In this document: one piece after another, positions 12,222 to 17,283 of the stretch | Layout of the letters: every line of letters begins with the position of its first letter | How positions within the stretch are numbered: position 1 is the first letter of the stretch | Notes under the pieces: model-generated | Database searches by the model: none | What the model was told of the DNA's origin: nothing | The model's input: the letters and a program-made list of their open reading frames with translations, nothing else | Assembly: GCA_963803575.1 (NCBI GenBank) | Contig: CAWDMW010000002.1 | Location: 1,314,308 to 1,378,307 of the forward strand | Reading direction: 5' to 3' | DNA length: 64,000 nt | From: an uncultured Alphaproteobacteria bacterium | GTDB taxonomy: Bacteria; Pseudomonadota; Alphaproteobacteria; Rickettsiales; UBA998 | Program-made: the position numbers and the translations under genes

Positions 12222-12395
12222 AGATATCCTATATTAAAAAAAAATTAAAAAGCTGATTCCTGCTTTAAGCACATCATTGAATATTAGTAAAGAAAAATAA
12301 TCTCTGTATCTGGGTTTTAAGTATTCTGATATATCAAAGTACTTTAATACATTTAAATCATGTGTATATAATAGTGGCTTGGCTAATATTTTAGA

Positions 12396-12428
12396 GAATG
12401 TCAGTGACACAAAGCATCACTGACATTC
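12396..12428 (-). terminator. 12-bp perfect hairpin just downstream of nrdB (probable terminator)
   Basis: GAATGTCAGTGA-cacaaagca-TCACTGACATTC lies 9 nt after the nrdB stop. The trailing U-tract on the minus strand is weak (TCTAAAATATT). Confidence 0.5.
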
Positions 12429-12436
12429 CCTGTGCA

Positions 12437-13399
12437 CTAACCTGCAAAAGCTTCTTCCCATGATCCCGTAGTGGCTGCTTTACTGTACTCAGTAACACGG
12501 TTTTCAAAGAAATTAGTATGCTCTACACCATTAAGAATCTCATCCATCCATGGTAGCGGGTGCGTACCAATATGGTACATAGGAGCCAGCCCCAATTGCG
12601 TTAGGCGTCTGTCACCAATGAAGCGGATATAGCGTTTCACATCTTCTGGCGTTAGCCCTTCAATACCACCAACACCGAAGGCCAGATCAATAAAGGCGTC
12701 TTCCAGCGTAATGATGGTATCACAAATCTTTTTCAAGTCGCGCTCATGCTCATCTGTATCCACTTCAGGGTTTTCTTGCTTAAAGGTATGATATAAGCGG
12801 ATAATGGATTCTGTGTGAAGTGATTCATCACGTGCAGACCAAGCCACAATCTGCCCCATACCTTTCATCTTGCCAAAACGTTGAAAATTCAGCAAAATAG
12901 CGAACGAAGCAAAGAGTTGTAATCCTTCCGTAAACGCACCAAAAGCCGCCAGCGTGCGCGCAATGCCGTCATTGGTGTCTGTGCCAAAGGTGTGCATATA
13001 GTCATATTTATCTTTCATTTCTTTATAGGATAAAAATGCCTGATATTCGGTTTCCGGCATTCCGAGCGTATCGAGCAGGTGGCTATAGGCGGCAATATGG
13101 ATGGTTTCCATATTGGAAAACGCAGCCAGCATCATCTGCACTTCGGTGGGTTGAAACACTTGCGAATAATGCTTCATATAGCAGTTATTCACTTCAATAT
13201 CGCTTTGGGTAAAGAAACGGAAAATTTGGGTGAGCAGATGCTTTTCATCCGCCGTCATGGTGGTTTTCCAGTCCTTCACATCATCGGCCAGCGGCACTTC
13301 CTCCGGCAACCAGTGAATACGCTGCTGCATCAGCCACGCATCATATGCCCACGGGTAAGAGAATGGTTTGTAAATCGGTTGTGCGTTTAGTAGGGTCAT
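12437..13399 (-). CDS. nrdB: ribonucleoside-diphosphate reductase beta subunit (class I, Tyr-radical type)
   Basis: MTLLNAQPIYKPFSYPWAYDAWLMQQRIHWLPEEV..., iron ligand and radical region ETIHIAAYSHLL, and ...AWSARDESLH. The ORF is open to 13462, but the ATG at 13399 gives the conserved N-terminus. Confidence 0.93.
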   Translation of the reverse strand: MTLLNAQPIYKPFSYPWAYDAWLMQQRIHWLPEEVPLADDVKDWKTTMTADEKHLLTQIFRFFTQSDIEVNNCYMKHYSQVFQPTEVQMMLAAFSNMETIHIAAYSHLLDTLGMPETEYQAFLSYKEMKDKYDYMHTFGTDTNDGIARTLAAFGAFTEGLQLFASFAILLNFQRFGKMKGMGQIVAWSARDESLHTESIIRLYHTFKQENPEVDTDEHERDLKKICDTIITLEDAFIDLAFGVGGIEGLTPEDVKRYIRFIGDRRLTQLGLAPMYHIGTHPLPWMDEILNGVEHTNFFENRVTEYSKAATTGSWEEAFAG

Positions 13400-13403
13400 G
13401 GTG

Positions 13404-13742
13404 TTAGTCCTTTGGTTGATTAAGTTGTTGGAGTAAGGCGGGGAGGTGAATGGTAATGACACCGATAACAGATTCGTGGTCTATACCATTGAGATAATCG
13501 TGAACCAGTATATTTCTAAACCCCGATATCTTTCCCCATGGAATATTGGGGCGGGATTGTTTGAAATCCTCCGATAAACGCTGAGCCGACTCTGACAATG
13601 TTTGCAAACGTCTAATGACTGCATCATACGTTACATCATCTGATAGTGCCTCTTCTATCGTATCAAAGCGACCAATGTATTTTTCTATATGTCTGGCATC
13701 CTCCTGAATACGGTCAATATAGAGAATATTGCTTTTAGCCAT
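13404..13742 (-). CDS. hepT: HepT (HEPN/DUF86) toxin of a type VII MntA/HepT TA pair
   Basis: 112 aa with the Rx4H motif in GFRNILVHDY. It overlaps the upstream MNT gene by 1 nt (TAATG). Confidence 0.85.
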   Translation of the reverse strand: MAKSNILYIDRIQEDARHIEKYIGRFDTIEEALSDDVTYDAVIRRLQTLSESAQRLSEDFKQSRPNIPWGKISGFRNILVHDYLNGIDHESVIGVITIHLPALLQQLNQPKD

Positions 13743-14059
13743 TACAATATGTTCCCTTGTAGCGATATAGCATCTTGTACAATGGACTCTATAAACACTG
13801 GATGCATTTTGTTGCTACTCATGATAACATCAACATATCGTCCAAGCAATTCAGTTGCGTCATATTGAAACCCGCCAAGATCAAATAGCGAGAAATGCTT
13901 GCTGTCAAAATCCACCAGCAAATCAATGTCACTGTCAGGCCGCTCTTCACCCCGCGCTACTGACCCAACCACACGGATGTTGGAGACGCCATGCTGTTTT
14001 GCAAGTGTAAGAAGGGCGTGCTGGTTTTGTTGGATGTGTTGGAGGAGAGGGGTGGTCAC
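13742..14059 (-). CDS. mntA: MntA minimal nucleotidyltransferase antitoxin
   Basis: 105 aa with the GSVARGEERPDSDIDLLVDF (GS..RG...D.D) NTase motif. GTG start. Confidence 0.85.
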   Translation of the reverse strand: MTTPLLQHIQQNQHALLTLAKQHGVSNIRVVGSVARGEERPDSDIDLLVDFDSKHFSLFDLGGFQYDATELLGRYVDVIMSSNKMHPVFIESIVQDAISLQGNIL

Positions 14060-14083
14060 TGTTTTATCTCGACTTGCTAAGAG

Positions 14084-14923
14084 TTACTTTTTATCATGCT
14101 CACTTTTAGTAACAAAAAGTCTAAGTAATTCATAGTGTGGACTGTCCTTAACTAAGTCCCAAATCTTTTCCTTATCCATGCTAGCTGAATCCTGAAATAA
14201 ATCTTTTAATAAACTGGAACGAATATTTTTCTTATAATCTTCTTTTTGGCTTTCTGGCAATTCCTTTATTTGCATGTAGGCAAGTTTCAACCTCAAACAG
14301 TCAAGTTGACGACGCTCTATATCAGGAATAGCTCGTAAATGAGTTTTATGTATATTTGTTCCAACTATAACAACTAGCGATACAAGCAGGAAAATATATA
14401 AGTGATAGTCAGAGTAAGCCAAAAAATCAAAATCTTTATCTATTATTTTTTTTGAATTTTTTGAATCAGTAGTTAGCATCATTATTAATAATATCAATAC
14501 TCCAATCATGACCGGCATGACAAACATATTGGCTAAAGCATGATTCGCACGCTTTGTATGGCTTTCTACCGCCGATTTACATATTTCATATTCACGTATA
14601 AGATAGTCAGTCGCCGATTCAGGTGTTTTATTTGATCTTTTTACTAAGCACGGAATCTTTTTTAATATTTCTTTATATTTACATAAAGAAATATAGTAAG
14701 ATATTGCAATGAATATAGCATAAACTATAGCTAGTGCGTATGTTTTATTATAAGATACATTATCTAGAATATTAAAAAACAAAAATGTTACTACAGCTAA
14801 TCCAGTAAATATACCAAAACATTTTAGTAAGGTATAAAACCTAAAGCTGCTAATAATATCATTAGCAATTCTGTTGTTGTTTGGATGATCTGTAATTTCT
14901 AAAGTGTTGTTTTCTACTGACAT
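14084..14923 (-). CDS. hypothetical 4-TM membrane protein with charged helical C-terminal tail (AT-rich island)
   Basis: 279 aa. Hydrophobic spans are LLKCFGIFTGLAVVTFLFFNIL, YALAIVYAIFIAISYYISL, MFVMPVMIGVLILLIMMLT and LYIFLLVSLVVIVGT. I recognised no family motif. About 22% GC in sampled 60-mers. Confidence 0.6.
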   Translation of the reverse strand: MSVENNTLEITDHPNNNRIANDIISSFRFYTLLKCFGIFTGLAVVTFLFFNILDNVSYNKTYALAIVYAIFIAISYYISLCKYKEILKKIPCLVKRSNKTPESATDYLIREYEICKSAVESHTKRANHALANMFVMPVMIGVLILLIMMLTTDSKNSKKIIDKDFDFLAYSDYHLYIFLLVSLVVIVGTNIHKTHLRAIPDIERRQLDCLRLKLAYMQIKELPESQKEDYKKNIRSSLLKDLFQDSASMDKEKIWDLVKDSPHYELLRLFVTKSEHDKK

Positions 14924-14971
14924 ATTATATTTCTTTAATACCTAGTTATTATGTTAATTGGAAAATTAATT

Positions 14972-15445
14972 TCATCGTAAAAATCTATTCATATCATAGT
15001 TATATGAAAATCTTTCAATCTTGTTTTTATTTGGATGCCTTTTCCAACTTATTAGAAACTTTATAGTGTCAGGTGATTTAAAATTAAGAACATCTGAACT
15101 GCCATAAAATTGCAGGCGAAAAATTACTGGATATTTACTATTTGGTGTTAGTAAATCTATTTTATGTTCAGAAAGTCTTTCGTTTTTTTGATTGGATTCA
15201 TCGTATATTTTGACTCCAATGCTGTACGCAGTTGCATTTCCTTGGTTTCTTACTTGCAAAACAAAGCAATCTTTACTTTGAGATTTTTCCACACTTATTT
15301 TGGCAACAACATGAGGCTGTGCCATTGCTCTGACCATTTTTGCTGTATAAACAGCTAAAACGAGGGTAGCGAAAAGTAAACCTACAGTGGCAGTCGCAAT
15401 AACAATATTAGAAAAAAGCTGTATTGTTTGTGGGTTAAACTCCAT
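14972..15445 (-). CDS. hypothetical 1-TM anchored protein with beta-rich (Ig/CARDB-like?) domain (AT-rich island)
   Basis: 157 aa. The N-terminal helix is IVIATATVGLLFATLVLAVYTA, followed by alternating beta-like segments (CFVLQVRNQGNATAYSIGVKIYD). The start is 9 nt after the nrdA stop, preceded by a GAGAAG-type RBS. Confidence 0.6.
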   Translation of the reverse strand: MEFNPQTIQLFSNIVIATATVGLLFATLVLAVYTAKMVRAMAQPHVVAKISVEKSQSKDCFVLQVRNQGNATAYSIGVKIYDESNQKNERLSEHKIDLLTPNSKYPVIFRLQFYGSSDVLNFKSPDTIKFLISWKRHPNKNKIERFSYNYDMNRFLR

Positions 15446-15454
15446 CTTACTTCT

Positions 15455-17283
15455 CTACTGACACGCCAGACATTCCTCGTAATTATTGTCGGCTTGCACG
15501 CCTTCATTGCGTTGTTTTTTGGCAAGTAAGGACATCTCCATTTGTACAGTTGGCTTGTTTTCATTGCCCACTTTTTCTGAGCGTTGCAGCGAGGTGGAGC
15601 GACAATAATAGAGGGACTTCACGCCTTTTTCCCATGCTTTGAAGTGCAACAGATGCAAGTCACGTTTACTGACATTAGCGGGCAGGAACAGATTGATGGA
15701 TTGTGCTTGTGAAATAAATCCACTGCGATCTGCTGCGTGTTCAACCACCCAGTATTGGTCAATTTCCTGTGCAGTGCGGAAGGTATCTTTTTCATGTTGC
15801 GTGAGAAAGTCCAGATGTTGTACCGAGCCTTCATTGCGGGCAATATCGTTCCAGACATCTTCTACATCTTGGTCTTTTGAAGCAAGCAGTGCTTTTAAAT
15901 GTTTGTTGCGTACAGCGAATGATCCTGACAGGGTTTTTTGGGTAAACACATTGGCCGCAACGGGTTCAATGCCAGGGGAGGCGTTGCCGGCAATAATGGA
16001 GATGCTGGCGGTTGGTGCAATCGCGGTTTTATTAGAGAAACGTTGCATCATGCCCGCTTCCTCCGCATCCGGGCAAGCGCCGCGTTCCTGCGCTAACAAC
16101 ACACTGGCTGCTTCCACTTGTGTGTGAATATTGGCAAAGATTTTCTTGTTCCATGACTTAGAGACAACGGATTCAAATGGCACTCCCTTACCTTGTAAAA
16201 ACGAATGAAAGCCCATTACGCCCAAGCCCACACTACGCTCACGGGTGGCAGAATATGTTGCACGTGCCATAGAATCCGGTGCATTATCGATGAAGTCTTG
16301 CAAGACATTATCCAGAAATCGCATAATATCTTCGATCATCTGCGGATGGTCTTTCCATTCTTCATAGGTTTCTAAGTTCAATGAAGACAGGCAGCATACG
16401 GCGGTACGTGATTCGCCCAAATGGTCATAGCCTGTGGGTAGCGTAATTTCACTGCATAAATTGGAAGTTTTGACTTGCAGCCCCAGTGTTTTATGATGCT
16501 CAGGGATATGGTTATTGACGTTATCAATAAACAACATATATGGCTCACCCGTTTCAATGCGCGCAAGCAATAGCTTTACCCATAAATCACGCGCACGCAC
16601 GGAGGTGATGATGTCACGCGTTTTTGGGCTGAGCAAATTCCAGTCCGCATCTCGCGCACCGCTTCCATGAAGGCATCACTAATGGAAACGCCATGATGGA
16701 TATTGAGGGTTTTACGGTTAGGATCACCGCCTGTTGGGCGACGAATATCAATAAATTCCTCAATTTCTGGATGGTCTATTGGCATATACACCGCTGAGGA
16801 GCCACGACGCAAGGAACCTTGCGAAATAGCCAGTGTCAGAGAATCCTGCACGCGCATGAACGGCACCACGCCAGAGGTTTTGCCGTTGCCGCGTACTTTC
16901 TCACCGATAGAGCGCAGATTCCCCCAGTAAGAGCCAATGCCACCGCCACGAGAAGCCAGCCAGACATTTTCATTCCATAAATCCACAATGCCTTGCAAGC
17001 TGTCATCCGTTTCATTCAAGTAGCACGAAATAGGCATACCGCGCTTGGTGCCACCGTTAGACAGGATAGGGGTGGCCGGCATAAACCAGTGCTGCGAAAT
17101 ATAGTCATAGAGGCGTTGTGCGTGGTCTGCATCATCAGCAAAAGCACTGGCCACGCGCGCAAACATACCCTGAAAATCTTCGCCTTCCAGCAGGTAACGA
17201 TCTTGCAATGTTGCTTTACCAAATGCAGTGAGTTTTGCATCGCGGGACGGATCAATGGTGATAGGGTGAGTTAACGTGGTCAT
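15455..17283 (-). pseudogene. nrdA: ribonucleoside-diphosphate reductase alpha subunit (cone-less, about 607 aa) interrupted by a 1-nt frameshift near 16652
   Basis: Two overlapping ORFs (16576..17283 and 15455..16636) together give a continuous NrdA sequence: ...NIHHGVSISDAFMEAVR[E/D]DADWNLLSPKTRDIITSVRARDLWVKLL...NLCSEITLP.... The frame changes between CGC (R) and GAT (D). Confidence 0.85.

What the first reader, a model, noticed from the sequence alone, without database searches (positions are those of the whole stretch)
13404..15454. AT-rich four-gene cassette (1-TM protein, 4-TM protein, MntA, HepT) inserted between nrdA and nrdB
Seen in sequence:
- All four genes are on the same strand as nrdA and nrdB.
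- The 157-aa ORF starts 9 nt after the nrdA stop (15455). It has one N-terminal TM helix and a beta-rich domain.
- The 279-aa ORF starts 48 nt after that. It has four hydrophobic spans and a charged helical tail.
- A GTG-start MntA (GSVARGEERPDSDIDLLV) starts 24 nt after the 279-aa ORF.
- HepT (RNILVH) overlaps MntA by 1 nt, and its stop is only 4 nt before the nrdB ATG.
- Composition is foreign. The 60-mers 14401-14460 and 14901-14960 each contain 13/60 G+C, against 34/60 for 16021-16080 inside nrdA.

Established knowledge: MntA/HepT is a type VII toxin-antitoxin pair, HEPN/MNT modules are enriched in defence islands, and nrdA and nrdB are normally adjacent.

Inference: a horizontally acquired module has lodged inside an essential operon and probably rides on its transcription. 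I could place neither membrane protein in any family. They may form, alone or together with the HEPN/MNT pair, an uncharacterised membrane-acting abortive-infection or defence system. The location next to dNTP synthesis, a process phages manipulate, may or may not be meaningful.
Basis: partly seen in the sequence, partly recalled or inferred. Interest (0 to 1): 0.8.

Follow-up and report, generated by a model that had tools for sequence, protein, structure and literature searches.

The report
Accessory-gene slot inside nrdA–nrdB operon
Between the two ribonucleotide reductase genes of an uncultured alphaproteobacterium sit an old toxin–antitoxin pair, also found at this spot in related genomes, and a newer AT-rich pair of membrane-protein genes; one of the pair belongs to a phage accessory family, and neither has a known function.

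Summary
All four ORFs, their spacings (9, 48, 24, -1 and 4 nt) and the MntA and HepT motifs are as described.

The locus is not one cassette. Only the two membrane-protein genes are compositionally foreign (GC3 0.23-0.24 against 0.48-0.50 for nrdA/nrdB). MntA is native-like (0.46) and HepT is intermediate (0.38).

MntA-HepT also abuts nrdB in the nearest relative, L002 (NrdB 96% identical, MntA 61%, HepT 51%). A third relative, L003, has an MntA-like gene upstream of nrdB, possibly with a HepT remnant. The toxin-antitoxin pair is therefore an old resident. The ribosome-binding site of nrdB lies inside hepT.

The slot between nrdA and mntA varies. L002 carries different phage-type genes there plus a BrnA antitoxin.

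ORF157 can be placed. It is a C-terminally truncated member of phrog_11802 (E = 9e-15), the "lysogenic conversion protein" found in the Z/fun hotspot of P2-like prophages. That family always occurs as a solo gene on mobile elements, and no member has a tested function.

ORF279 is a true orphan, with no credible relative among 1.84 billion representative proteins. There is no conserved pairing and no match to a validated defence system.

A defence role is plausible by association only. Interest is moderate.

The parts
15455..17283 (-). nrdA (class I RNR large subunit). In the window it is split by a 1-nt deletion near 16652. In another assembly of the same organism it is intact at 609 aa.
   Evidence: Pfam PF00317 and PF02867 match both halves. 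The Logan contig of ERR12040027 is identical over 5806 nt except for one extra C, reading GCGCGCAGATG against GCGCG-AGATG in the window.
14972..15445 (-). ORF157: an N-terminal TM anchor plus a seven-strand beta-sandwich. It is a truncated member of phage family phrog_11802, the P2-EC53 Z-region 'lysogenic conversion protein' family. GC3 is 0.23.
   Evidence: - phrog_11802 match at E=9.4e-15, residues 11-155 onto profile positions 19-158 of 230.
- 33% identity to CAD54906.
- Alignment A1 shows the shared TM/juxtamembrane region and the N-x-GNA-x-AY and ISW motifs, and the missing conserved C-terminal ~70 aa.
- AlphaFold2 model with pLDDT 70.
- GC3.
14924..14971 (-). A 48-nt AT-rich spacer between ORF157 and ORF279. 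It contains a weak promoter-like match.
   Evidence: Sequence. The promoter-like site ATGAAA-16-CATAAT lies at 14975..14948, but the number of such sites in the region is no higher than in shuffles.
14084..14923 (-). ORF279: an orphan protein with four hydrophobic spans (about 33-54, 61-83, 130-152 and 172-192) and an ~85-aa charged helical C-terminal tail. GC3 is 0.24.
   Evidence: - Only a self-hit among 5.8e9 proteins.
- Exhaustive phmmer against 1.84e9 representatives found itself plus one spurious LRR-repeat hit.
- No hit in phages, plasmids or IMG/VR.
- No family in Pfam, NCBIfam, PADLOC or PHROGs.
- AlphaFold2 model all-helical with pLDDT 50.
- Hydropathy.
13742..14059 (-). MntA: a minimal nucleotidyltransferase antitoxin with a GTG start and the GS-x10-DxD motif.
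   Evidence: - PF01909 at 1.3e-13.
- PADLOC candidate family PDC-S09 at 4.9e-31.
- PDB 1WOT at 8.7e-13.
- 61% identical to the L002 gene at the same position.
13404..13742 (-). HepT: a HEPN RNase toxin with the R-x4-H-x-Y motif (RNILVHDY). Its start overlaps the MntA stop (TAATG). Its last codons contain the nrdB Shine-Dalgarno-like AAGGA.
   Evidence: - PF01934 at 1.8e-21.
- Sequence.
- About 51% identical to the L002 gene, whose stop lies 2 nt before the nrdB ATG.
12437..13399 (-). nrdB (RNR small subunit). The true start is the ATG at 13399, 4 nt after the hepT stop.
   Evidence: PF00268 at 5e-77. Homologues align from residue 1 at 13399.
12393..12431 (-). A hairpin with 15-nt arms (93% complementary) and a 9-nt loop, just downstream of the nrdB stop. 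It is a candidate operon terminator.
   Evidence: Inverted repeat I6. The consensus terminator scan did not call it.

Best explanation
The nrdA-nrdB gap in this lineage is a small accessory-gene slot with two layers of different age.

**Layer 1: the old resident**
- It is an MNT/HEPN toxin-antitoxin pair of the MntA/HepT kind.
- By homology, HepT would cleave RNA and MntA would neutralise it by adenylylating the Tyr of the RX4HXY motif.
- The pair is welded to the 5' end of nrdB. The hepT stop lies 2-4 nt before the nrdB ATG, and the nrdB ribosome-binding site lies inside hepT.
- It was most likely already there in the common ancestor of this genome and its nearest sequenced relatives.
- It persists as a selfish addiction module that cannot be deleted cleanly without damaging nrdB expression.

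**Layer 2: the recent arrival**
- It sits between nrdA and mntA and is a recently acquired, un-ameliorated AT-rich two-gene unit of phage-moron type.
- ORF157 is a membrane-anchored beta-sandwich protein of family phrog_11802, the cargo of the Z/fun hotspot of P2-like prophages. The positive-inside rule predicts that its beta-sandwich domain faces the cytoplasm. It lacks the family's conserved C-terminal domain.
- ORF279 is an orphan 4-TM protein.

**Expression and function**
- With no terminator between the genes, all four are probably transcribed with nrdAB.
- The most likely function of the AT-rich pair is a membrane-level phage-exclusion or lysogenic-conversion-type activity inherited from a phage or other mobile element.
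- It would act independently of MntA/HepT.

**Shown:** anatomy, composition, family membership and conservation pattern.
**Inferred:** co-transcription, age, and all biochemical functions.
For: **Anatomy and composition**
- Gene layout and motifs.
- GC3 split into two layers.

**MntA/HepT is old**
- L002 has NrdB 96%, NrdA 87% and syntenic UbiE/UbiB at 70-72% identity.
- L002 carries MntA (61%) and HepT (51%) at the same position, directly against nrdB.
- L003 (NrdB 87%) has an MntA-like gene upstream of nrdB, followed by a weak HepT C-terminal remnant.
- MntA GC3 tracks the host: 0.46, 0.57 and 0.31 in genomes whose nrdB GC3 is 0.49, 0.73 and 0.43.

**The slot is variable**
- L002 carries a phrog_20667 protein with a weak PDC-S32 match, plus a BrnA antitoxin, in place of ORF157 and ORF279.
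- Across 122 alphaproteobacterial loci the median nrdA-nrdB gap is 84 nt.

**ORF157 family**
- Membership.
- Location in the P2 Z/fun slot between the tail-fibre and sheath genes.
- That slot is described as a defence-enriched but mixed-purpose hotspot (PMC9519451; bioRxiv 10.1101/2024.10.15.618418).
- Other contexts lie next to integrases or recombinases, or are solo insertions beside housekeeping operons.
- Family genes have lower GC than their surrounding locus in every context examined.

**Transcription**
- No terminator-like site on the coding strand within the insert.
Against: - No member of phrog_11802 has a tested function. No PADLOC model matches the family.
- ORF157 lacks the conserved C-terminal domain, so it may be a non-functional fragment.
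- ORF279 has no relatives, so selection on it cannot be assessed.
- Ancestry of MntA/HepT rests on only three genomes. HepT GC3 stays at about 0.36-0.38 in both genomes rather than tracking its host, so replacement by recombination cannot be excluded.
- The HepT remnant in L003 is statistically weak (E = 0.3 in a 700-nt search).
- The NCBIfam equivalog cut-offs for MntA and HepT are not reached: 40 and 46.9 bits against 60.
- Co-transcription has not been tested. Promoter-like sites inside AT-rich DNA cannot be excluded.
Confidence: 0.55

Rival explanations
1. First reader's model. The four genes form one horizontally acquired cassette, and the membrane proteins work with the HEPN/MNT pair as a single new membrane-acting abortive-infection system.
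For: The genes share a strand, have tight spacing and show no internal terminator. HEPN/MNT modules are common in defence islands (established knowledge). MntA matches the PADLOC candidate family PDC-S09.
Against: - Composition splits the locus in two.
- The nearest relative keeps MntA/HepT at the same site without ORF157 or ORF279.
- Relatives of ORF157 never neighbour MNT/HEPN genes or a multi-TM gene.
Confidence: 0.07
2. The AT-rich pair is a decaying remnant of a mobile element with no current function. ORF157 is a truncated fragment, and ORF279 is a young or fast-evolving orphan that is merely tolerated because it is read through with nrdAB.
For: - ORF157 lacks the ~70-aa C-terminal region that is conserved across the family.
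- No integrase, repeats or other mobile-element parts remain.
- ORF279 has no credible homologue anywhere.
- L003 may show decay of the neighbouring hepT.
Against: - Both ORFs are intact, in DNA where stop-free runs reach at most 143 codons by chance.
- ORF157 keeps all the invariant N-terminal and beta-sandwich residues.
- An independent assembly has both ORFs identical.
Confidence: 0.25
3. The pair has a non-defence membrane function of the lysogenic-conversion type, such as envelope or surface modification, a toxin-immunity pair, or host interaction in a symbiotic lifestyle.
For: - The P2 Z/fun hotspot is 'mixed purpose'.
- The only name a source gives the family is 'lysogenic conversion protein'.
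- Small multi-TM proteins are typical immunity proteins (established knowledge).
Against: No enzymatic, secretion or toxin domain was detected in either protein. The positive-inside rule places the soluble parts of both proteins in the cytoplasm, not on the surface; this is an inference from the sequences.
Confidence: 0.1
4. Hailong-like logic. ORF279 would be a membrane channel effector held in check by a nucleotide or DNA signal made by the adjacent nucleotidyltransferase.
For: A 4-TM protein with a cytoplasmic tail lies 24 nt upstream of a small NTase. There is a weak NCBIfam hit of MntA to HalB (E = 3.6e-4).
Against: - The HalB hit scores 20 bits against a cut-off of 190 and covers only the 18-residue catalytic motif.
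- ORF279 matches no HalA or any other model.
- MntA has its canonical HepT partner and is conserved without ORF279 in L002.
Confidence: 0.03

Closest known systems
MntA/HepT (MNT/HEPN) type VII toxin-antitoxin modules, for example Shewanella oneidensis SO_3165/SO_3166. The closest solved structure by sequence is the minimal NTase 1WOT.
   Same: - The gene order is antitoxin then toxin, with overlapping stop and start.
- The protein sizes are ~105 and ~112 aa.
- MntA has the GS-x10-DxD motif and HepT has RX4HXY.
- Both pass the Pfam gathering thresholds.
   Different: - The pair is embedded inside the nrdAB operon, with the nrdB ribosome-binding site inside hepT, and is conserved there across related genomes.
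- The NCBIfam equivalog thresholds are not reached.
- No activity has been tested.
phrog_11802, the P2-EC53 Z-region ORF1 'putative lysogenic conversion protein' (CAD54906; also in phage R18C)
   Same: - It shares the N-terminal TM helix with a conserved juxtamembrane segment, the QPHVV motif, and a beta-sandwich with N-x-GNA-x-AY and ISW motifs.
- Its GC is low relative to its surroundings.
- It sits as cargo in a variable slot.
   Different: - ORF157 is 157 aa rather than ~230 aa and lacks the conserved charged C-terminal domain.
- Identity is only about 30-33%.
- It is chromosomal, inside an essential operon, and is followed by a 4-TM orphan that no other family member has.
Accessory and defence hotspots of P2-like prophages (old/tin and Z/fun loci), and phage 'morons' in general
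   Same: A fixed pair of conserved flanking genes brackets cargo that varies between relatives, has low GC and is largely unannotated, mixed with toxin-antitoxin modules.
   Different: Here the flanks are the two subunits of an essential cellular enzyme, not phage genes. Only two to three genomes are available, so hotspot behaviour is suggested but not demonstrated.
Hailong (HalA membrane channel plus HalB nucleotidyltransferase)
   Same: The resemblance is superficial: a multi-TM protein lies next to a small NTase.
   Different: There is no sequence membership for either protein. The NTase has a HEPN partner.

Membership tests
MntA/HepT type VII TA (MNT/HEPN) | MNT-fold antitoxin with the catalytic motif G-S-x(9-13)-D-x-[DE] | tested here: met
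   GSVARGEERPDSDIDLLV is present. PF01909 scores 51.6 bits against a cut-off of 21. PDB 1WOT matches at 8.7e-13.
MntA/HepT type VII TA (MNT/HEPN) | HEPN toxin with R-x4-H, extended to RX4HXY with the modifiable Tyr | tested here: met
   FRNILVHDY is present. PF01934 scores 76.5 bits against a cut-off of 23.5.
MntA/HepT type VII TA (MNT/HEPN) | Bicistronic arrangement with the antitoxin upstream and translational coupling | tested here: met
   TAATG overlap at 13742. L002 has the same arrangement.
MntA/HepT type VII TA (MNT/HEPN) | Reaches the NCBIfam equivalog cut-offs (NF047752 MntA_antitoxin, NF047751 HepT_toxin) | tested here: not met
   Scores are 40.0 and 46.9 bits against a cut-off of 60. 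Superfamily membership is safe, but equivalence of function is an inference.
MntA/HepT type VII TA (MNT/HEPN) | MntA adenylylates HepT, and HepT cleaves RNA | not testable with these tools
   This needs biochemistry.
phrog_11802 (P2-EC53 Z-region ORF1 family) | Significant match to the family profile | tested here: met
   E=9.4e-15 at 55.8 bits, residues 11-155 onto profile positions 19-158 of 230. tblastn gives 1e-5. Pairwise BLASTP gives 2e-12.
phrog_11802 (P2-EC53 Z-region ORF1 family) | N-terminal TM helix plus a beta-sandwich carrying the invariant residues (P43, N66, G68, N69, A70, A72, W133 in ORF157 numbering) | tested here: met
   Alignment A1 of 25 sequences. The AlphaFold2 model has helix 5-41 and seven strands.
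phrog_11802 (P2-EC53 Z-region ORF1 family) | Conserved C-terminal charged domain (GVSxLGA...QIAxQxKKIREDW...DR) | tested here: not met
   ORF157 ends at ...YDMNRFLR, just before this domain. The domain is not supplied by ORF279 either: hhalign found no match.
Known or candidate anti-phage systems (PADLOC-DB 2.0) | Profile match of the component proteins | tested here: not met
   - ORF157 has no hits.
- ORF279 has only noise (ZorA at E=0.014).
- HepT has only noise.
- MntA matches the candidate family PDC-S09 at 4.9e-31.
- Four phrog_11802 members have no hits.
Hailong (HalA/HalB) | HalB equivalog NTase and a HalA channel protein | tested here: not met
   NF051895 scores 20.2 bits against a cut-off of 190 and covers residues 32-49 only. 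ORF279 has no HalA hit.
CARDB (PF07705) and TIGR02588 | Reaches the curated cut-off | tested here: not met
   CARDB scores 18.8 bits against 22.7. TIGR02588 scores 16.7 bits against 95. These matches are compatible with a generic Ig-like beta-sandwich only, as Foldseek also shows (TM-scores 0.35-0.50).
Conserved two-gene membrane system (ORF157 plus ORF279) | Homologues of the two genes co-occur in other genomes | tested here: not met
   ORF279 has no credible homologues. In the roughly 13 sampled contexts, ORF157 relatives have no multi-TM neighbour.

The most novel reading that the evidence does not exclude
ORF157, a phrog_11802-type membrane-anchored beta-sandwich that has lost the family's own C-terminal domain, and the orphan 4-TM protein ORF279 together form a new two-component membrane-acting phage-exclusion or abortive-infection system. 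ORF279 would replace the lost effector or regulatory domain. In addition, the nrdA-nrdB gap of this clade would be a genuine chromosomal defence hotspot, held in place by an essential operon and a toxin-antitoxin module.
Probability: 0.15. Interest if true: 0.7.

Novelty: new variant of a known kind. Interest (0 to 1): 0.4.

Why it matters
If the layered picture is right, it shows how selfish and accessory genes can colonise the inside of an essential operon.

- A toxin-antitoxin pair has become structurally entangled with nrdB translation and has persisted across related lineages.
- The space beside it turns over phage-type cargo, much like a prophage hotspot.

The locus also gives a handle on phrog_11802. 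This is a widespread family (234 database hits) of P2-type hotspot cargo, and no member of it has a tested function. The truncated copy here, and its orphan 4-TM neighbour, are cheap to test.

Nothing found bears on a long-standing open question, and no new mechanism has been demonstrated.

Tried and rejected
**Searches on ORF279**
- k-mer search of 5.8e9 proteins.
- Exhaustive phmmer against 1.84e9 representatives. The only extra hit, P0003, is an LRR-repeat protein whose score is inflated by eight repeats, so I rejected it.
- tblastn against phages and plasmids.
- IMG/VR pattern scan.
- Pfam, NCBIfam, PADLOC and PHROGs.
- The single-sequence AlphaFold2 model has pLDDT 50. That is too poor for a fold search, so none was run.

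**Does ORF279 supply the missing C-terminal domain of ORF157?**
- hhalign of the family alignment against ORF279 found nothing.

**Foldseek on ORF157**
- Searches against PDB and BFVD returned only generic matches of a TM helix plus an Ig-like sandwich, such as Kir channel cytoplasmic domains, with TM-scores of 0.35-0.5.

**Insertion scars**
- No meaningful flanking repeats were found. One 13-nt repeat, TGTCAGTAGA(G/A)AA, occurs at the nrdA stop and again at the ORF279 start, so it brackets ORF157. About eight such matches are expected by chance in 5.3 kb.

**Other checks that found nothing**
- No paralogues of the four proteins in the window.
- No Rfam families or tRNA genes in the window.
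- The metagenome scan with NrdB found no closer relatives; all hits were 76% identical or less.
- Literature searches for P2-EC53, the accession numbers, phrog_11802, or a toxin-antitoxin module between nrdA and nrdB found nothing specific.
- The organism's name could not be recovered.

**Hailong reading**
- Rejected on family scores.
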